Notes under the pieces: model-generated
What the model was told of the DNA's origin: nothing
Databases searched by the model: none
The model's input: only the letters and a program-made list of their open reading frames with translations
Translations under genes and position numbers: made by a program
Shown: in pieces, positions 1 through 49,772 of the stretch
How the letters are laid out: each line of letters opens with the position of its first letter
Numbering within the stretch: the first letter of the stretch is position 1
NCBI RefSeq assembly: GCF_055900595.2
Contig: NZ_CM148325.1
DNA: 64,000 bases
Direction: 5' to 3' (one strand)

Positions 1-2
1 AC

Positions 3-1886
3 ACGCTCAAGATATACCCCACATCTTACATCTACGAAGATAGTTCATTAGGGTATTGGCCCAGTTATTCCTCACTTTCACCTGAAGCACGTGGCGCGTA
101 CCTGAGTTGGCTTACCAGCGACAGATGTGACACTTCTTGCCCAATTGGTTACGTTTTTATTTATCTGTATGGTCTGGAAAGACGGGCGCTTGTTGACAGC
201 AGGGACAGCAATATATCTGACGATGAGTTCTATTCTCTTTTCAAAGAGATCTGCCGTCTCAGATCTGTTTTCAATGAAAACAGATCATTCCGGAACTACT
301 CGTCCCAGTTACTTGAAGCGATGTCCATTCTTCGTCCGAACGAAAATCTTGCAGCAGCTCTCAGCGATGATTCAGAGTTCAGCAATAGCATGCAGTTCAG
401 GTTAATCCTGGCAAAGACTGTTGATGCAGGAGCCCCGGTTCCAGCGGATCTGGCTCTGACGTGGGTGACAAACCATACTGAATACTCATTACGAACCCCC
501 GCCCGCCGCTGTGCGAAAGAATTTGCTGCACTATTTAAACGGCGTTACACCCTTAAATACGGTGAAGGGATGGTAGTGAAGCCGAATAAAGCGCGTCTGC
601 GTTTAGATTACACGCCTGCAAGTCCCAGTTTGAGAGGTATTCGGCTTCCTGTTCCTGACTTGCCTGATCCAAGTGCATTGAAAGGCCCTGTTCAGAAGCT
701 TATGACTCTTGCTGATATATGCACAGGTGAACTGGATGCTTACAGTCGTTACCTTGGTAGAAAAGGCACTTCAGCAAATGATACCGTTGCAATTTTGTTG
801 CTGCCTTCAGAAATCGTTAACGAAAGCGCAGATAAAATATTAAGTGCATTCAAACGCTGGGCTGATGACGCGATCCTCAGTAAGGGGGGAGTAGTTTCAG
901 TTGCTGACTTCTGGTCACACATGAATGCTACCTGTCCGGCAAAGATCAACAAAAAAGAGGCCGACTTGATGCAGGCCTTTGCACAGAAAATGGGGTACTG
1001 CCTGGCTCCTGACCCCTATTACCACCACGTAAAAGCAGATGTCGATGGTGTTCTTGTTTTATTCCCTGCTGGTGAAAGTGGCCGCTTCTCTCCTTCTCCT
1101 GAATTTATCACAGCTGTATTGACGCTCCGATTAGGTTCGGTAGTCGCCTTGATTGACAATTCTTTCGATCAAGCCGAACAGAAAGTGCTTGAGAATGCCA
1201 TCAACAACAATGTCAGCTTCAGCGATGATGAAAAGCGCTCTCTGCACGCATATTTAACGTGGCAGCTTCATACCCCGGCGAATATGACGGGAATGAAAAG
1301 CCGGATTGAATTACTCGGTGCAGCGGAAAAATCAGCTGTGGGTAAGGTTATCGTTAGTGTCGCTTGCTCTGACGGCAGAATTACGCCTGCCGAAATCAAA
1401 CAGCTTGAGAAGATTTATACAAGCCTGGGGTTGGATCCCTCATCCGTATCAAGCAATATCCATCAGCATTCCGTAACTGAAACTGCTCTCGTTTCATCTG
1501 TACCAGCTAATCAGTCGACGGCAGGGTTTACGCTGGATGCCAATGTACTTGCCCGCCACGAATCTGCCACTGATGATGTTCGTAAATTACTGAACTCGAT
1601 TTTCACTGAAGAAGAACCAGAACAACCAGAAAGCGCTCCAGCCTCATTAACCGGGGAAGGGGGGCTTGACTCCGCTCATAGCCAACTTTATCGCAGGTTG
1701 CTGGAGAAAGAACAATGGTCCAGAAAAGAGGCGACAGAGTTGTGTAGTAACTGGAACCTGATGCTCGGCGGTGCGCTTGAGGTGATTAACGATTGGTCCT
1801 ATGCGGTGGTTGATGCACCAGTGCTGGAAGATGCTGATGATCACATTTGGGTTGACCTGGAAATAGCCAAAGAATTAGAGGGTTAG
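3..1886 (+). CDS. TerB-N/TerB-C-like domain protein, 5'-truncated by window edge; first gene of Shango-like defence operon
   Basis: Frame 3 is open from window start with no stop before the annotated Met at 321; upstream translation reads ...YWPSYSSLSPEARGAYLSWL...GYVFIYLYGLERR (TerB-N-like); C-terminal region has VACSDGRITPAEIKQLEKIY (TerB-like). Stop at 1886, 3 nt before next gene. Confidence 0.6.
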   Translation, partial: TLKIYPTSYIYEDSSLGYWPSYSSLSPEARGAYLSWLTSDRCDTSCPIGYVFIYLYGLERRALVDSRDSNISDDEFYSLFKEICRLRSVFNENRSFRNYSSQLLEAMSILRPNENLAAALSDDSEFSNSMQFRLILAKTVDAGAPVPADLALTWVTNHTEYSLRTPARRCAKEFAALFKRRYTLKYGEGMVVKPNKARLRLDYTPASPSLRGIRLPVPDLPDPSALKGPVQKLMTLADICTGELDAYSRYLGRKGTSANDTVAILLLPSEIVNESADKILSAFKRWADDAILSKGGVVSVADFWSHMNATCPAKINKKEADLMQAFAQKMGYCLAPDPYYHHVKADVDGVLVLFPAGESGRFSPSPEFITAVLTLRLGSVVALIDNSFDQAEQKVLENAINNNVSFSDDEKRSLHAYLTWQLHTPANMTGMKSRIELLGAAEKSAVGKVIVSVACSDGRITPAEIKQLEKIYTSLGLDPSSVSSNIHQHSVTETALVSSVPANQSTAGFTLDANVLARHESATDDVRKLLNSIFTEEEPEQPESAPASLTGEGGLDSAHSQLYRRLLEKEQWSRKEATELCSNWNLMLGGALEVINDWSYAVVDAPVLEDADDHIWVDLEIAKELEG

Positions 1887-1889
1887 TGA

Positions 1890-3206
1890 ATGTCTGTAAC
1901 ACGTATAAGAGTGAAAGAGCGCGACGCTATTATTCAGTCACTTAAGTCGGGAGTAACGCCAAGGATAGGTATTCAGCATATCCAGGTTGGCCGCGTGAAT
2001 GAGATAACCGCCCTCCATCAGGATATTGAACGGATTGCTGATGGCGGGGCAAGCTTCAGACTTATCATTGGTGAGTATGGTTCCGGCAAAACGTTCTTTT
2101 TAAGTGTTGTACGGTCTATTGCGTTAGAGAAAAAGCTGGTCACGGTCAGTGCAGACCTTTCTCCCGACAGACGTATTCACTCATCGGGAGGTCAGGCTCG
2201 TAATCTCTACTCAGAGCTTATGAAAAATATGTCCACCAGAAACAAACCAGATGGCAATGCATTACTTAGCGTTGTGGAAAGGTTTGTTACTGAGGCAAGG
2301 AAGGAAGCTGATGCGAACGGCTCCCAGGTCTCATCCGTTATTCATAAACGCCTTGCTGCTTTGTCAGATATGGTGGGTGGATATGACTTTGCGAAGGTCA
2401 TTGACGCATTCTGGCGCGGGCATGAGCAGGATAACGAAACCTTAAAATCCAATGCTATTCGCTGGTTGCGGGGCGAGTACACCACAAAAACTGATGCCCG
2501 TAATGATCTTGACGTCCGAACGATTATCTCAGACGCCTCGTTCTATGACTCTTTGAAGTTGATGAGCCTTTTTGTCCGTCAGGCAGGCTATGCCGGACTT
2601 TTAGTTAGCCTCGACGAGATGGTGAACCTCTTCAAGTTGAATAATACGCAAGCGAGAACGGCCAACTACGAACAAATTTTGCGGATCCTGAATGACTGCC
2701 TGCAAGGCTCCGCCGAAAATATTGGTTTTATCCTCGGGGGGACGCCAGAGTTTCTTTTCGATCCACGTAAGGGGCTCTACAGCTATGAAGCGCTCCAGTC
2801 GCGTCTGGCAGAAAATCGATTCGCACAGAAAGCTGGCGTGATTGACTACTCGTCTCCCACGCTACATCTTGCCAGCCTCACTCCTGAGGAACTGTATATT
2901 TTACTGAAAAATCTTCGTCATGTTTATGCTGGTGGAGATCCCGCAAATTATCTGGTGCCAGATGAGGCTCTGACCGGGTTTCTGCATCACTGCAGCAAAA
3001 CCATCGGAGATGCTTACTTTCGAACTCCCCGCAATACCATAAAAGGTTTTCTGGATATGCTGGCTGTGCTGGAACAAAACAGTACGATGAACTGGCAAGC
3101 TCTCATTGAGGGGGTGGCGATTGAAGAAGACAAGCCCAGCGATATGGGGGATGCCATTGTGGAGGAAAGTGATGACGATGATGGCCTGGCGAATTTCAGA
3201 CTATGA
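1890..3206 (+). CDS. P-loop ATPase (DUF2791/BrxD-like family), second gene of Shango-like operon
   Basis: 438 aa; Walker A GEYGSGKTFFLS; Walker B-like LLVSLDEM; GAGGG RBS upstream; stop overlaps next start (ATGA at 3203-3206). Confidence 0.7.
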   Translation: MSVTRIRVKERDAIIQSLKSGVTPRIGIQHIQVGRVNEITALHQDIERIADGGASFRLIIGEYGSGKTFFLSVVRSIALEKKLVTVSADLSPDRRIHSSGGQARNLYSELMKNMSTRNKPDGNALLSVVERFVTEARKEADANGSQVSSVIHKRLAALSDMVGGYDFAKVIDAFWRGHEQDNETLKSNAIRWLRGEYTTKTDARNDLDVRTIISDASFYDSLKLMSLFVRQAGYAGLLVSLDEMVNLFKLNNTQARTANYEQILRILNDCLQGSAENIGFILGGTPEFLFDPRKGLYSYEALQSRLAENRFAQKAGVIDYSSPTLHLASLTPEELYILLKNLRHVYAGGDPANYLVPDEALTGFLHHCSKTIGDAYFRTPRNTIKGFLDMLAVLEQNSTMNWQALIEGVAIEEDKPSDMGDAIVEESDDDDGLANFRL

Positions 3207-5401
3207 GCAGTGCCTACAATAGTCTCGATCCCCGTGTCCGTAAGTGGATTTATAAGCAGGGCTGGTCATCATTAAGGCCCTTGCAGGAGAGCTCTATTCC
3301 GGCAATTTTAGCCCGTGATCGTGATGTACTAATTAGTGCAGGTACAGCTGCGGGTAAAACAGAGGCTTTCTTTCTTCCTGCCTGTTCAGCGATTGCAGAT
3401 CTCACTGGTGGATTTGGCATTATCTATATCAGTCCGTTGAAGGCATTGATTAACGATCAGCACCGTCGTCTTGAGAGCCTGGGGGAAGCCCTGGAAATGC
3501 AAGTGACGCCCTGGCACGGGGATGTACCACAAAGCAAAAAGAAGAAAGCACGGACAAGCCCGTCAGGTATCTTACTTATCACACCTGAATCACTTGAGTC
3601 TTTGCTCATAAACTCATTGGGTTGGCTCAAACAGGCGTTTTCTTCAGTGGCATACATTGTTATTGATGAGTTCCACGCTTTTATTGGCTCAGAGCGTGGT
3701 ATACAACTGCTTTCGCTGCTTAATAGAATTGACCATGTGCTGGGACGCCAGTTAAATCCAGTTCCCCGTGTCGCGTTGAGTGCCACTCTGGGAGAGCTGG
3801 AAAAAGTGCCAGAATTATTGCGTCCGGATAAGAGATTACCTTGTGAAACGGTAACAGACAGTAATAGCACCGCTACACTACAAGTTCAGGTTAAAGGTTA
3901 TCTTGAGCGGGTGCCCGAAAAAGGGGAAGAGCTCCAGAGCTCTGCTGAACAGCTCGTCTGCGCGGATATTTTCAGGCTCTGTCGTGGCGATTCCCACCTG
4001 GTCTTTGCTAACAGTCGAAAGCGTACTGAAAGCATAGCGGCAATACTGAGCGACATGTGTGAAGCAAATGTCGTTCCTAATGAATTCTTTCCTCATCATG
4101 GCTCCCTTGCCAGGGAGTTACGTGAGGCGCTTGAAGCCCGACTGCAGAAAGGGAATTTGCCCACAACCGCTGTTTGTACAATGACGCTGGAGCTGGGTAT
4201 TGATATTGGTAAGGTGCAGTCTGTCATACAAGTGACACCTCCGCATTCTGTTTCCAGTCTGCGTCAACGCATGGGACGTTCAGGGCGGCGCGATTCCCCA
4301 TCGGTGCTGAGAATGTTAATTACTGAACCTGAACTTACCGCAACCAGCAGCATTGTGGATCATTTACGGCTGCAGTTGGTTCAGGCGATGGCAATGATCA
4401 GGTTGATGATCTCTAAGCGCTGGTTCGAGCCTGCAGATATCCGGCAGAAACATTACTCCACACTACTACACCAGATCCTGGCTATTACTGCACAATGGGG
4501 AGGTGTTCGTGCCGATCAACTCTGGTCACAACTTTGCCAGACAGGTCCGTTCCGGAATGTGGATATAAATGACTTTAAAAGTCTGCTTAAACATATGGGG
4601 ACATGTGGCCTGCTCAGTCAACTAGCCAGCGGTGAAATAGTTGTCGGGGCTGAGGGGGAGAAGCTGACTAATCACTACACGTTTTATGCCGTATTCAATA
4701 CACCTGAGGAGTTTCGCATTGTAACGGGAAACCGAACTCTTGGCACAGTGCCTGTAGACTCCCCACTTTTGCCGGAGCAGCACATCATCTTCGGCGGACG
4801 GCGCTGGAAAGTGACAGAGATCGAGGTTGAAAAAAAGGTTATCTATGTTGAGGCGACTAAAGGCGGTCAGCCACCACTATTCAGTGGTAGCGGGATGTCT
4901 GTTCATGATGTTGTTCGCCAGGAGATGCTCGCTATCTACAGGGAAAATGATTACCGTATCGCGGTAGGCAACAAGAGAGTCGATTATGCTGATGCCGCAG
5001 CCAGAAGCCTCTTTGCGGAAGGAAGTGACAACTTCCAACGCTACAATCTACACAATGACTGTTTTATTGCCAGTGGTCAGAACTGCTACGTGATCCCGTG
5101 GATGGGGGATAAAATTGTCAATACAATTACGTCCCTGCTTATACGTTGTGGCTTTAAAGCCAGTTCATTTGCAGGTGTGATAGAGGTAGAGGACTCAGGC
5201 GTTGCCTCTGTCCAGCGTGTACTTAAGAAAATGCTATTGTCGGGGTTACCTTCAGAGTTTGAGCTTGCTGCAGTTGTTCCTGACAAGTATCTGGATAAAT
5301 ATGACGAGTATTTACCAGAGACTTTGCTTGCTAAAGGGTATGGGGCACAGGCGTATGATATAGAAGGAACGTGCACCTGGCTGCAGAAACACCTTCAGTA
5401 G
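3203..5401 (+). CDS. Superfamily-2 DExH helicase (Lhr/DEAD-DEAH-like) with about 300 aa C-terminal extension, third gene of Shango-like operon
   Basis: 732 aa; motif I GTAAGKTEAF, motif II VIDEFHAF, motif III ALSATLG, motif VI QRMGRSGRRD; translationally coupled to the ATPase. Confidence 0.75.
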   Translation: MSSAYNSLDPRVRKWIYKQGWSSLRPLQESSIPAILARDRDVLISAGTAAGKTEAFFLPACSAIADLTGGFGIIYISPLKALINDQHRRLESLGEALEMQVTPWHGDVPQSKKKKARTSPSGILLITPESLESLLINSLGWLKQAFSSVAYIVIDEFHAFIGSERGIQLLSLLNRIDHVLGRQLNPVPRVALSATLGELEKVPELLRPDKRLPCETVTDSNSTATLQVQVKGYLERVPEKGEELQSSAEQLVCADIFRLCRGDSHLVFANSRKRTESIAAILSDMCEANVVPNEFFPHHGSLARELREALEARLQKGNLPTTAVCTMTLELGIDIGKVQSVIQVTPPHSVSSLRQRMGRSGRRDSPSVLRMLITEPELTATSSIVDHLRLQLVQAMAMIRLMISKRWFEPADIRQKHYSTLLHQILAITAQWGGVRADQLWSQLCQTGPFRNVDINDFKSLLKHMGTCGLLSQLASGEIVVGAEGEKLTNHYTFYAVFNTPEEFRIVTGNRTLGTVPVDSPLLPEQHIIFGGRRWKVTEIEVEKKVIYVEATKGGQPPLFSGSGMSVHDVVRQEMLAIYRENDYRIAVGNKRVDYADAAARSLFAEGSDNFQRYNLHNDCFIASGQNCYVIPWMGDKIVNTITSLLIRCGFKASSFAGVIEVEDSGVASVQRVLKKMLLSGLPSEFELAAVVPDKYLDKYDEYLPETLLAKGYGAQAYDIEGTCTWLQKHLQ

Positions 5402-5415
5402 ACTGGATATGTAGT

Positions 5416-5452
5416 CAGGGTATAAATAACTTATTTATACCCTGATTTTTTT
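5416..5452 (+). terminator. Rho-independent terminator after helicase gene
   Basis: 13-bp stem CAGGGTATAAATA/TATTTATACCCTG with 5-nt loop, followed by TTTTTTT, 15 nt downstream of the stop at 5401. Confidence 0.6.
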
Positions 5453-5578
5453 ACTTCCCGGTGGACTTACTTGGCTTTAGTCCCGGAGTGTTGCCAGGAG
5501 TATCTTTATTATCTCGTCGGCGTTGATCTGGTTTTCCTGTCGATTTAGCAATTGGTTTTGGACCAGGTTTAAGACCCA
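5451..5578 (-). CDS. Hypothetical small basic K/P-rich protein (42 aa from internal Met; the ORF track extends it to 5651)
   Basis: MGLKPGPKPIAKSTGKPDQRRRDNKDTPGNTPGLKPSKSTGK; AAGGA RBS about 9 nt upstream of the ATG at 5578; convergent with the helicase and sharing the hairpin. Coding status uncertain. Confidence 0.2.
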
Positions 5579-5882
5579 TGATAGTTATCCTTTTGAGATG
5601 TAAGAGGGAAGCCCTCAACATTGGTATATTGGATACTGAGAAATTTTTCAATGGGAGTGATAAACGGCCGAATGATTAACTCGATATTGTGATCAACGTC
5701 TGTTTTTTGCACACTGTAGACTGACTCTTGGAGCAGAAGGTTGCTCTGAGCGAGGAATGGACAGTTACACTCATCACCAACGCCAATAGCCTCATTACGC
5801 GTATAAAGCTGTATTAATCATTGGGGAACAGTTTAATGCGGGATTTTCGACTTATGGACTTGATTCAGGTGTCAAAATTAAA

Positions 5883-6899
5883 ATGAGCAGTGTAAGGACA
5901 GACAAGTTCATTAGGTATGGTTTTGCGGTTGTGGCGATAGTTGCCATACTCATTACTACTATCACAACCCCCAATCCCACACCTTATCAATATATAGTTT
6001 ACCGAATAGTTCTGGCTCTGGCTGCCGGATGTATTGGTGCAGTTCTGCCTGGTTTCCTTGAAGTAAAATTTAATGGGTGGTTAAGAGCATCTGGCGCAGT
6101 GGCGATCTTCGCTATAGTGTTTTTCATAAGCCCAGATTTGCTTCAACAAAATCCTGAATCTGCAAGTAAACCTGTACCGCCTACTGTGATTGATGCATAT
6201 GCCGTTAATAGTTCCAATCGCGACAGATACCTCGAATTATTTCGAACAGGACAGTTCGGTCAGCGGGACAAGCTGCGCATCGGTTGTGTTGAGTGGAGTG
6301 AATCATCGTGCGTGGCTGCTGGTAATTTTTTGCGATTGTTAAGCGAAGCTGGCTGGGAAATCGATTCTGACGCTGTATTCAGAATGCAACCATCCGTGCC
6401 AGTTGAGGGGGTATCGATTGTAAGCCGTGGCGATGATCTGGTCGGTTTGCCAAAAGTACCACCCCACATGGGCCGTTGGAGTCGATCAGACATTAGTTAT
6501 GAAATTTTGACAGCGGCATTTAAATTGATGGGAGTTCCGGTTTATTTTTCCAGTGACCCGACATTACAACCAGGTACTACCGGAGTGTACTTTGGACCGA
6601 AACCGAAACTGGATGCACCAGTCATGCAAAAAGATGAGAATGTGCGACGTGAGCTTCTCCGCTACGTCGGTTTGGGAATGACTATTCAGCGAGCCTGCTC
6701 TCAGCAGCCCGTCGAACTTTGTGGGGGTGAAATCTTTTCCTGGGAAACGTCGGTATCTTCGTTCCTAAGGCAGCAGAGATTCAACTCCGATGCCGTAAAC
6801 AGATGGCTTGCCTTGCCGCAGGTTAATGCGGCTTCGGCAACTGCAGACATGAAAATAAAGCTAGATTTGTTAATGTCATTTGTTCTGGGCATCGAGTAA
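5883..6899 (+). CDS. Hypothetical membrane-anchored protein: three predicted N-terminal TM helices plus about 250 aa soluble domain
   Basis: 338 aa; hydrophobic segments FAVVAIVAILITTITT, IVLALAAGCIGAVLPGFL, ASGAVAIFAIVFFI; no motif I recognise in the soluble part. Confidence 0.55.
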   Translation: MSSVRTDKFIRYGFAVVAIVAILITTITTPNPTPYQYIVYRIVLALAAGCIGAVLPGFLEVKFNGWLRASGAVAIFAIVFFISPDLLQQNPESASKPVPPTVIDAYAVNSSNRDRYLELFRTGQFGQRDKLRIGCVEWSESSCVAAGNFLRLLSEAGWEIDSDAVFRMQPSVPVEGVSIVSRGDDLVGLPKVPPHMGRWSRSDISYEILTAAFKLMGVPVYFSSDPTLQPGTTGVYFGPKPKLDAPVMQKDENVRRELLRYVGLGMTIQRACSQQPVELCGGEIFSWETSVSSFLRQQRFNSDAVNRWLALPQVNAASATADMKIKLDLLMSFVLGIE

Positions 6900-7542
6900 C
6901 TATACCTCTTGCGAGGATGATTGAGCGTCTAATGGACCAGCTTAGCCGTTAGCGCTATTTGTTTACGTAAGCCTGTGGAATCCAACTAGTGCTTCTACGA
7001 TGCGTTGTTTGGTGAAAAAAAAGTGTTGAAGCACTGGTTTTAGACAACTAAAGCCACGATTTGCTCATGCGTCGAAAATGTAGTCGTCTACTGTGTAGCA
7101 CGGAGGCGATATTCGTACGCTTACACTTGCCGATAGGCCACTGGGGAGTGTTCTTGGCACTAAGCTGCCAGGCCCGAAGGTCTGCTATGAGCGAGGGGCT
7201 GACATTCCTATTGGCATTCGGTGTGAGTTATCGGGGGCGGTCATGCGGCATACTTCCGATACAGGCGTTTCCAGCTCTGCCTGTTTCAGGGTTATATTAA
7301 TCTGCTTTAGAATTAATCGTGGCTTTAGCATCTGCACATCGTGCTGGAGAAACCTGAGTGAACTAAATCATATTCCCTTTCTTCAGCTAATCAATTGATA
7401 GTTATGCGGAAAAAGTTACTTTGCTTGTCAATAATCCATTTCACATCCGTTAATTCAATGCTATGCGTCTTCGCATTAATCTGGAAAGGTAGTAAGTGAA
7501 ATAAAAACTTAGCCAATGACTAATATCTGAGGATACTTTGTC

Positions 7543-49611: not shown

Positions 49612-49772
<161 letters not shown>

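What the first reader, a model, noticed from the sequence alone, without database searches (positions are those of the whole stretch)
3..5401. Translationally coupled TerB-domain / ATPase / DExH-helicase operon (Shango-type architecture)
Three same-strand genes have overlapping or abutting start and stop codons (TAG..ATG with 3-nt spacer; ATGA overlap). The first has TerB-N/TerB-C-like motifs, the second is a DUF2791-like P-loop ATPase, and the third is an SF2 helicase with motifs I, II (DEFH), III and VI. This TerB + ATPase + helicase triad is the composition reported for the Shango anti-phage system and for the earlier predicted TerB-associated DNA-processing system. The first gene starts upstream of the window.
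Basis: partly seen in the sequence, partly recalled or inferred. Interest (0 to 1): 0.6.

Follow-up and report, generated by a model that had tools for sequence, protein, structure and literature searches.

The report
Known Shango anti-phage operon (SngABC)
This is an ordinary copy of Shango, a three-gene bacterial anti-virus system that was already tested in a nearly identical Escherichia coli version in 2022, although how Shango stops viruses is still unknown.

Summary
Window 3-5401 holds three same-strand genes joined by a 3-nt spacer (TAG-tga-ATG, 1884-1892) and a 4-nt ATGA overlap (3203-3206), followed by a strong intrinsic terminator (5413-5454).

PADLOC models identify them as SngA (E 1e-90), SngB (1e-187) and SngC (8e-278). 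Pfam finds TerB_N, TerB and TerB_C in gene 1, BrxC_BrxD (PF10923, which I recall as the former DUF2791) in gene 2, and DEAD plus Helicase_C in gene 3.

The proteins have the same lengths (769/438/732 aa) as the Shango system from E. coli KTE113 that Millman et al. 2022 validated. They are 94%, 99% and 97% identical to it over the 399 residues listed for each. The operon is present in 442 of 5426 complete E. coli genomes. Here it lies in an island integrated at tRNA-Arg(CCT).

So this is an already known system, and nothing in this copy departs from the reference. The mechanism is unpublished in the library searched. My best inference is that membrane-anchored SngA acts as sensor or scaffold, and that the BrxD-like AAA+ ATPase SngB loads or activates the Lhr/BrxHI-like helicase SngC on phage DNA. 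Interest is low.

The parts
3..1886 (+). sngA, 3' part (codons 143-769 plus stop). The first 142 codons, which include an N-terminal membrane helix, lie upstream of the window.
   Evidence: Open frame with no stop. PADLOC SngA E 1e-90. The full-length 769-aa gene is present in the identical island of E. coli FY10 (L001:11577-13886), with SngA E 2e-102. 94% identical to KTE113 SngA.
27..503 (+). TerB_N domain of SngA (truncated at its N-terminal side by the window edge)
   Evidence: Pfam PF13208, E 1.3e-41, fragment residues 9-167, model positions 46-207 of 207.
1131..1448 (+). TerB domain of SngA
   Evidence: Pfam PF05099, E 6.2e-6, fragment residues 377-482.
1506..1880 (+). TerB_C domain of SngA. 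The model shows a helix-strand-helix-helix-strand-strand layout here.
   Evidence: Pfam PF15615, E 5.6e-27, fragment residues 502-626. Secondary structure from the AF2 model, full-length residues 697-768. Only weak winged-helix fold hits, probability 0.4-0.85, E > 0.7; the output does not say which residues they cover.
1884..1892 (+). sngA-sngB junction: TAG stop, 3-nt spacer 'tga', ATG start
   Evidence: Read directly from the sequence. The same spacing occurs in Sodalis ligni L004 and Dickeya solani L005.
1890..3206 (+). sngB, a BrxD-like AAA+ ATPase (438 aa)
   Evidence: PADLOC SngB E 1.3e-187 over the full length; BrxD 1.1e-43. Pfam BrxC_BrxD PF10923 E 2.2e-151. 99% identical to KTE113 SngB.
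2070..2093 (+). SngB Walker A, GEYGSGKT (K67)
   Evidence: Motif located by script. Identical in the validated KTE113 allele.
2598..2618 (+). SngB Walker B, LLVSLDE (D242, E243)
   Evidence: Motif located by script. Identical in KTE113.
3203..3206 (+). sngB-sngC junction: ATGA start/stop overlap
   Evidence: Read directly from the sequence. The same 4-nt overlap occurs in Sodalis ligni L004.
3203..5401 (+). sngC, an SF2 helicase of the Lhr/BrxHI (Ski2-like) type (732 aa)
   Evidence: PADLOC SngC E 8e-278 over the full length; BrxHI 1.6e-115 over residues 3-730. Pfam DEAD plus Helicase_C. Nearest solved relatives are the Lhr cores 5v9x and 7lhl and YprA (MrfA by my recollection) 6znp. 97% identical to KTE113 SngC.
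3338..3361 (+). SngC helicase motif I, AGTAAGKT (K52)
   Evidence: identical in KTE113.
3665..3676 (+). SngC helicase motif II, DEFH (D155, E156)
   Evidence: identical in KTE113.
3779..3787 (+). SngC helicase motif III, SAT
   Evidence: identical in KTE113.
4265..4291 (+). SngC helicase motif VI, QRMGRSGRR
   Evidence: identical in KTE113.
5413..5454 (+). Intrinsic terminator closing the operon: a 16-bp hairpin followed by a T-run, 12 nt after the sngC stop
   Evidence: Terminator scan. RNA fold dG -19.4 kcal/mol, z -5.2, 0 of 200 shuffles as stable.

Best explanation
The region is a Shango anti-phage defence operon, sngA-sngB-sngC, carried on a genomic island integrated at the tRNA-Arg(CCT) gene of an Escherichia chromosome.

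Shown here:
- The three proteins belong to the SngA, SngB and SngC families.
- They are almost identical to the E. coli KTE113 system, which reduced phage plating when cloned alone under its native promoter.

Inferred mechanism (not shown; roughly 0.35 confidence):
- SngA is tethered to the inner membrane by its N-terminal helix. Its TerB_N, TerB and TerB_C domains act as the sensor or scaffold that detects an infection-associated change at the membrane or at the incoming DNA.
- SngB, an ORC/Cdc6-type AAA+ ATPase homologous to BrxD, uses ATP to load or activate SngC.
- SngC, an Lhr/BrxHI-like (Ski2-like) helicase, translocates on or unwinds phage DNA or replication intermediates and so blocks replication.
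- No nuclease domain is detectable in any of the three proteins. Any degradation would therefore depend on host nucleases.
- The effect is more likely direct interference than cell suicide.
For: Identity:
- PADLOC SngA, SngB and SngC are the top hits, at E 1e-90, 1.3e-187 and 8e-278.
- Pfam finds TerB_N + TerB + TerB_C, BrxC_BrxD, and DEAD + Helicase_C.
- The genes are contiguous, co-oriented and tightly joined, and they end in a strong terminator.
- Table S2 of Millman et al. 2022 (bioRxiv 10.1101/2022.05.11.491447) lists validated system SG206 'Shango' from E. coli KTE113 with SngA 769, SngB 438 and SngC 732 aa. The window proteins are 94%, 99% and 97% identical over the 399 residues listed for each. 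The ATPase and helicase motifs are identical.
- The tested insert was 6700 bp. That is the three genes plus about 470 nt upstream and about 400 nt downstream. Its 5' end matches L001:11108-11505 at 95%. The three genes were therefore sufficient.
- A Pseudomonas aeruginosa PA14 homologue also protects (PMC10250203).
- The triad is conserved at 52% SngA identity in Sodalis ligni.
- The distribution is patchy and island-borne: 442 of 5426 complete E. coli genomes, in islands at tRNA-Arg and tRNA-Phe.

Mechanism:
- The N-terminal hydrophobic helix MELWIFIVAIYLIYILFF gives the top hydropathy score and is a helix in the AF2 model.
- SngB matches BrxD and SngC matches BrxHI over its full length.
- PMC12839542 classifies BrxD as an ORC/Cdc6 AAA+ ATPase. 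It classifies BrxHI as a Ski2-like helicase with wHTH, HAS-barrel and Lhr-CTD DNA-binding modules. It describes the two as a tightly linked dyad and proposes a loader role for BrxD.
[quoted passage not shown] This is not the usual abortive-infection pattern.
Against: - This exact allele has not been assayed.
- The first 426 nt of sngA lie outside the window, so its intactness in the source genome is inferred from an identical island in strain FY10.
- Reported protection by the E. coli system is modest: about 10-fold on two phages, according to PMC10250203.
- No step of the mechanism has experimental support in the library searched.
- SngA and SngB have no solved relatives.
- The SngA model has only moderate confidence (pLDDT 68) and no significant fold match.
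- The absence of a nuclease rests on Pfam-level searches only.
Confidence: 0.9

Rival explanations
1. Shango works by abortive infection. Once SngA senses infection, the SngB/SngC motor attacks or unwinds host as well as phage DNA, or drains ATP. The infected cell dies or arrests before phage are released.
For: Many helicase- or ATPase-containing defence systems described in the same screen act by abortive infection (Millman et al. 2022 preprint). TerB systems such as Dionysus pair TerB with a membrane pore-forming toxin (10.1101/2025.09.30.679545). No self/non-self marking enzyme, such as a methyltransferase, is present in the operon.
Against: The PA14 Shango protected liquid cultures across a broad range of phage doses (PMC10250203). 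This is atypical for abortive infection. No toxin, nuclease or pore-forming domain is detectable in SngA, SngB or SngC.
Confidence: 0.2
2. The ATPase and helicase are a leftover of a type 2 BREX (Pgl) system, whose hallmark accessory pair is BrxD plus BrxHI. On this reading they are not a self-standing Shango system.
For: SngB hits BrxD (PADLOC 1.1e-43; NCBIfam BREX_BrxD 1.8e-42). SngC hits BrxHI (1.6e-115 over the full length).
Against: - The Sng models score far higher than the BREX models: 622 vs 148 bits for SngB, and 922 vs 385 bits for SngC.
- The BrxD NCBIfam score of 145.9 is far below its cut-off of 350.
- No PglZ, PglX, BrxC or PglW gene lies within 12 kb on either side in the identical island.
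- The pair is always preceded by the TerB gene, including in Sodalis and Dickeya.
- The three genes alone protect.
Confidence: 0.02
3. The genes are a tellurite-resistance or general stress (ter) locus, as the RefSeq product name 'tellurite resistance TerB family protein' suggests. Alternatively they are a housekeeping Lhr-type DNA-repair helicase operon.
For: RefSeq annotation of some alleles uses the tellurite-resistance name. SngC's nearest solved relatives are the repair helicases Lhr and YprA, which I recall as MrfA. It also gives a partial hit to the ligase-associated DEXH helicase model.
Against: - No terZ, terA, terC, terD or terE genes are nearby.
- The TIGR04121 score of 235.8 is far below its cut-off of 850.
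- The operon is in only 8% of complete E. coli genomes, on tRNA-linked islands with integrases and IS elements. Decayed remnants occur in other genomes. This pattern fits mobile accessory DNA, not housekeeping genes.
- Phage protection has been shown directly for the near-identical allele.
Confidence: 0.03

Closest known systems
Shango (SngABC) of E. coli KTE113, system SG206 of Millman et al. 2022
   Same: Same three genes in the same order. Identical protein lengths (769/438/732 aa). 94/99/97% amino-acid identity over the residues listed, with identical Walker and helicase motifs. The upstream (promoter) region is 95% identical in the FY10-type island.
   Different: A few dozen substitutions, mostly in SngA. 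The chromosomal island may differ. This allele has not itself been assayed.
Shango of Pseudomonas aeruginosa PA14 (PA14_RS11735-11745; Johnson et al., NAR 2023)
   Same: The same TerB-like + ATPase + DEAD/DEAH helicase triad with anti-phage activity.
   Different: It sits in a core defence hotspot (cDHS1) rather than a tRNA-linked island. Its sequence was not compared here. It showed broader protection in liquid culture.
BrxD-BrxHI dyad of type 2 BREX (Pgl)
   Same: SngB is homologous to BrxD and shares PF10923. SngC is homologous to BrxHI over its whole length. In both systems the two genes are adjacent.
   Different: Shango has no PglZ, PglX, BrxC or PglW, and therefore no methylation-based self-marking. 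It has a membrane-anchored TerB protein instead. HMM scores separate the two families clearly.
Lhr-core and MrfA/YprA DNA-repair helicases (PDB 5v9x, 7lhl, 6znp)
   Same: SF2 helicase core with a DExH motif II. These are the best solved-structure relatives, at E 1e-25 to 3e-29.
   Different: The similarity covers the motor core (query residues 6-374 in the best stretches). Shango's helicase is encoded with an AAA+ ATPase and a TerB protein on mobile islands. It does not reach the NCBIfam cut-offs for those families.
Other TerB-containing defence systems (Bunzi BnzA, Dionysus DinB)
   Same: They use a TerB domain protein with a membrane association in anti-phage defence.
   Different: Their partner proteins are unrelated: an uncharacterised BnzB in Bunzi (listed as 'hypothetical' in Table S2), and MAEBL-like DinA plus the pore-forming DinC in Dionysus. 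There is no ATPase/helicase pair.

Membership tests
Shango (SngABC) | A protein matching the SngA model, with TerB_N, TerB and TerB_C domains | tested here: met
   PADLOC SngA E 1e-90 for the window fragment and 2e-102 for the full-length protein in the identical FY10 island. Pfam TerB_N 1.3e-41, TerB 6e-6, TerB_C 5.6e-27.
Shango (SngABC) | A protein matching the SngB model (PF10923 ATPase) with an intact Walker A and Walker B | tested here: met
   PADLOC SngB E 1.3e-187, residues 1-438 against model 1-439. PF10923 E 2.2e-151. GEYGSGKT and LLVSLDE are present.
Shango (SngABC) | A protein matching the SngC model (SF2 helicase) with intact motifs I, II, III and VI | tested here: met
   PADLOC SngC E 8e-278, residues 2-729 against model 3-719 of 720. 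DEAD plus Helicase_C. Motifs located.
Shango (SngABC) | The three genes adjacent, on one strand, forming one unit | tested here: met
   3-nt spacer and 4-nt overlap, with a terminator 12 nt after sngC. The same layout occurs in Sodalis ligni.
Shango (SngABC) | A complete, uninterrupted sngA in the source genome | tested here: inconclusive
   The window starts at codon 143. The 627 codons present have no stop. The island that is 100% identical over window 1-10000 in E. coli FY10 has an intact 769-aa gene.
Shango (SngABC) | Confers protection against phage | not testable with these tools
   Shown for the 94-99% identical KTE113 allele cloned alone (Millman et al. 2022, Table S2, marked 'v') and for the PA14 homologue. 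Not assayed for this allele.
BREX type 2 (Pgl) | Core genes pglZ, pglX and brxC, plus pglW, next to brxD and brxHI | tested here: not met
   None are annotated within 12 kb on either side in the identical island. SngB scores 145.9 bits against the BREX_BrxD cut-off of 350.
Tellurite-resistance ter operon | terZABCDE-type genes (TerC membrane protein, TerD paralogues) around the TerB gene | tested here: not met
   The neighbours are the ATPase, the helicase, IS elements, an integrase and hypothetical proteins. No ter genes are present.
Lhr / ligase-associated DEXH helicase | A score above the curated family cut-off | tested here: not met
   TIGR04121 scores 235.8 bits against a cut-off of 850. 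PRK13767 scores 191.9 against 849.

The most novel reading that the evidence does not exclude
Shango may be a nuclease-free exclusion machine tethered to the inner membrane. On this reading SngA holds a portable 'AAA+ loader plus Lhr-like helicase' module, the same dyad used by type 2 BREX, at the site where phage DNA enters. SngA would perhaps bind DNA through a winged-helix-like TerB_C domain. The helicase would then strip or unwind the incoming genome without killing the cell. If this is right, it would also explain what BrxD and BrxHI do in BREX.
Probability: 0.25. Interest if true: 0.55.

Novelty: already known. Interest (0 to 1): 0.15.

Why it matters
For genome annotation, the locus should be labelled Shango (sngABC) rather than 'tellurite resistance TerB family protein / ATP-binding protein / DEAD/DEAH box helicase'. 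It adds nothing new to the catalogue of defence systems.

Its remaining value is as a convenient natural allele of a system whose mechanism is still unknown. The homology of SngB and SngC to the BrxD-BrxHI pair means that solving Shango would probably also explain that part of type 2 BREX.

Tried and rejected
1. Solved-structure sequence searches. Nothing was found for SngA or SngB. For SngC, only generic SF2 helicase cores turned up.

2. AlphaFold2 model of full-length SngA from a 43-sequence Enterobacterales alignment. Mean pLDDT was 68 and pTM 0.51. A Foldseek search against the PDB gave no match with E <= 0.001. There were only weak winged-helix-like hits; I place them in the C-terminal domain because of its helix/strand order in the model, since the output gives no query coordinates. 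I treat this as a hint only.

3. Literature on a Shango mechanism. Three searches found only the two discovery papers plus surveys. The Anantharaman, Iyer and Aravind 2012 paper that first predicted a TerB-associated DNA-processing system is not in the held library. What I say of it comes from citations in other papers and from memory.

4. BREX type 2 remnant, ter operon and Lhr repair helicase readings. All were rejected on HMM cut-offs and gene neighbourhood.

5. Whether the two downstream genes (338 aa and 786 aa) belong to the system. This was rejected for four reasons:
- A strong terminator separates them from sngC.
- The validated insert does not include them.
- Shango occurs without them in a tRNA-Phe island.
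- They persist where Shango is absent.

6. Whether the window comes from strain FY10. It does not. The island is identical, but the flanking core is only 94-97% identical.


Full report
**Observation.** The ORF list and the sequence itself show three co-oriented genes on the + strand.
- Frame 3 is open from nt 3 to a TAG at 1884-1886. That is 627 codons with no stop.
- The next gene starts at ATG 1890, after the three bases 'tga', and ends at TGA 3204-3206.
- The third gene starts at ATG 3203, so start and stop overlap as ATGA. It ends at 5401.
- Twelve bases after the third stop lies a 16-bp hairpin followed by a T-run (5413-5454). Its fold energy is -19.4 kcal/mol, z = -5.2, and none of 200 shuffles folds as well.

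The transcription unit therefore consists of exactly these three genes.

**What it is.** The PADLOC profile library gives SngA (E 1e-90), SngB (1.3e-187, full length) and SngC (8e-278, full length) as the best hits for genes 1, 2 and 3. Pfam agrees:
- Gene 1 has TerB_N (1.3e-41), TerB (6e-6) and TerB_C (5.6e-27).
- Gene 2 has BrxC_BrxD, PF10923 (2.2e-151). From memory, this family was formerly named DUF2791.
- Gene 3 has DEAD (3.7e-32) and Helicase_C (2.4e-14).

The first 10 kb of the window are 100% identical to the chromosome of E. coli FY10. There the first gene is a complete 769-aa protein with an N-terminal hydrophobic helix, MELWIFIVAIYLIYILFF.

**Comparison with the validated system.** Millman et al. 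2022 named Shango and tested it experimentally (bioRxiv 10.1101/2022.05.11.491447).
- Their Table S2 lists system SG206, 'Shango', marked as validated. It comes from E. coli KTE113, on a 6700-bp insert encoding SngA (769 aa), SngB (438 aa) and the helicase (732 aa).
- The table gives the first 399 residues of each protein. Over these, the proteins here are 94%, 99% and 97% identical, without gaps and with identical ATPase and helicase motifs.
- The 5' 399 nt of the tested insert match the region upstream of sngA in the FY10-type island at 95%.
- By arithmetic, the insert holds the three genes plus about 470 nt upstream and about 400 nt downstream. The three genes alone were therefore sufficient for the reported phenotype.
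- A homologous triad from Pseudomonas aeruginosa PA14 was independently shown to protect against several phage families (PMC10250203).

**Distribution and context.**
- The operon is present at >= 80% coverage in 442 of 5426 complete E. coli genomes. A further ~360 genomes hold only partial matches. In the one such genome examined, this is the last ~150 nt of sngC annotated as a pseudogene. I read these partial matches as decayed remnants.
- In the window, the operon lies in an island that ends at tRNA-Arg(CCT) (14003-14077, - strand). The island also has an integrase, a PapB-like regulator and a frameshifted IS3.
- In another strain the operon sits in a tRNA-Phe island.
- The triad, with the same 3-nt spacer and 4-nt overlap, is conserved in Sodalis ligni, where SngA is 52% identical.
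- In Dickeya solani an IS element separates sngB from sngC.

This is the pattern of a mobile accessory defence cassette.

**Rivals considered.**
- *BREX type 2 remnant.* This is suggested by the BrxD and BrxHI hits. It is rejected because the Sng models score far higher (622 vs 148 bits and 922 vs 385 bits). The NCBIfam BrxD score (145.9) is well below its cut-off (350). No BREX core genes lie within 12 kb.
- *Tellurite-resistance locus.* Some RefSeq product names suggest this. It is rejected because no other ter genes are present.
- *Housekeeping Lhr-type repair helicase.* This is rejected on family cut-offs and on the patchy, island-borne distribution.

**How it probably works.** No mechanistic study of Shango is in the library searched. 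As late as 2025, authors state that the role of TerB domains in defence is unclear. The following facts bear on mechanism:
- SngA carries an N-terminal membrane helix followed by a disordered linker. Millman et al. suggested 'membrane surveillance' for TerB systems.
- SngB and SngC are homologues of the BrxD-BrxHI dyad.
- A 2026 comparative study classifies BrxD as an ORC/Cdc6-type AAA+ ATPase. It classifies BrxHI as a Ski2-like helicase with winged-helix, HAS-barrel and Lhr-CTD DNA-binding modules. It proposes that BrxD loads or activates BrxHI (PMC12839542).
- SngC's nearest solved relatives are Lhr and YprA, which I recall as MrfA.
- No nuclease, toxin or modification domain is detected in any of the three proteins.
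[quoted passage not shown] This argues against abortive infection.

My best inference, at about 0.35 confidence, is this. Membrane-anchored SngA senses or scaffolds at the site of infection. SngB then loads or activates SngC on phage DNA. The helicase blocks phage replication, possibly exposing the DNA to host nucleases. Abortive infection is the main alternative, at about 0.2.

**Structure attempt.** I modelled full-length SngA from 43 homologues. Mean pLDDT was 68. No PDB fold match reached significance. There were only weak winged-helix-like hits. The TerB_C region of the model has a helix-strand-helix-helix-strand-strand order, so these hits probably fall there, although the output gives no query coordinates. 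This is a lead, not a result.

**Verdict.** This is a correct reading of a known, experimentally validated defence system. It is a near-identical allele of the reference E. coli Shango, with nothing unusual in its architecture. Novelty: already known. Interest is low (0.15). What interest remains comes from the unsolved mechanism of Shango itself and its link to the BrxD-BrxHI module of type 2 BREX.

Noticed in passing
window 7543-9903 (+): A 786-aa protein with an N-terminal HsdR_N-type PD-(D/E)xK nuclease domain (residues 63-131, E about 1e-8). It also has a weak P-loop region (AAA_22, residues 220-320, Walker-A-like GDAQSGKSS). It matches no PADLOC system model. It lies just downstream of Shango in a defence-type island, so it is a candidate uncharacterised nuclease-ATPase defence gene. 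It is kept in a strain that has the same island without Shango (L009).
   Followed up: partly
window 5883-6899 (+): A 338-aa protein with a hydrophobic N-terminal region. It has no hit in Pfam, NCBIfam or PADLOC. The 4.6-kb segment holding this gene and the 786-aa gene is present at >= 80% coverage in 232 of 5426 complete E. coli genomes, and in 147 genomes together with Shango.
   Followed up: partly
window 1-14100 versus 14105-64000: The island part is 100% identical to E. coli FY10, but the chromosomal core after tRNA-Arg is only 94-97% identical to FY10. The core segment 14001-36000 is >= 99% identical in only 9 of 5426 complete 'E. coli' genomes and 90-95% in most. The window therefore comes from a divergent Escherichia lineage that recently acquired the island horizontally.
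   Followed up: partly
window 14003-14077 (-), tRNA-Arg(CCT); compare L008: In strain E400634, whose core is 100% identical to the window, the same tRNA-Arg site holds a P22-like prophage with IntS instead of the Shango island. This tRNA gene is therefore an integration hotspot with alternative occupants.
   Followed up: partly
window 10080-11219 (+): An IS3-family element whose transposase is split over overlapping frames; it is annotated as frameshifted in the identical FY10 island. It is followed by a small PapB/FocB-like regulator gene and an integrase gene (12637-13854, - strand) at the island edge.
   Followed up: no
L003 (E. coli APEC E12053) 9002-9526; window 5248-5713: About 360 complete E. 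coli genomes hold only partial matches to the operon. Many retain only the last ~150 nt of sngC. In the genome examined, this fragment is annotated as a pseudogene. It is followed by about 310 nt of conserved downstream sequence, next to PerC-like and IbrB-like genes. I read these as decayed Shango remnants that mark a recurrent recombination or deletion junction.
   Followed up: partly
L009 (E. coli 12867) 6270-7420: In this strain, the same tRNA-Arg island has IS66 elements ending 62 nt after the position of the sngC stop, and no Shango genes. This looks like an IS-mediated loss of the defence operon.
   Followed up: no
L004 6649-7599 and L005 6341-7285: In Sodalis ligni and Dickeya solani, an ArdC-like gene (ArdcN + MPTase-PolyVal domains; ArdC is an anti-restriction protein by my recollection) lies divergently just upstream of sngA. 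This suggests carriage on conjugative or integrative elements in those hosts.
   Followed up: no
window 36614-36786 and 49649-49719 (+): Three Rfam naRNA4 (CssrE) matches above the gathering score (78-82 bits), in the core-genome part of the window. They are unrelated to the finding.
   Followed up: no
window about 24700-28800: A stretch that is only about 75% identical to the corresponding FY10 region, which by position is the yfc-type chaperone-usher fimbrial operon. It is much more divergent than the flanking core.
   Followed up: no
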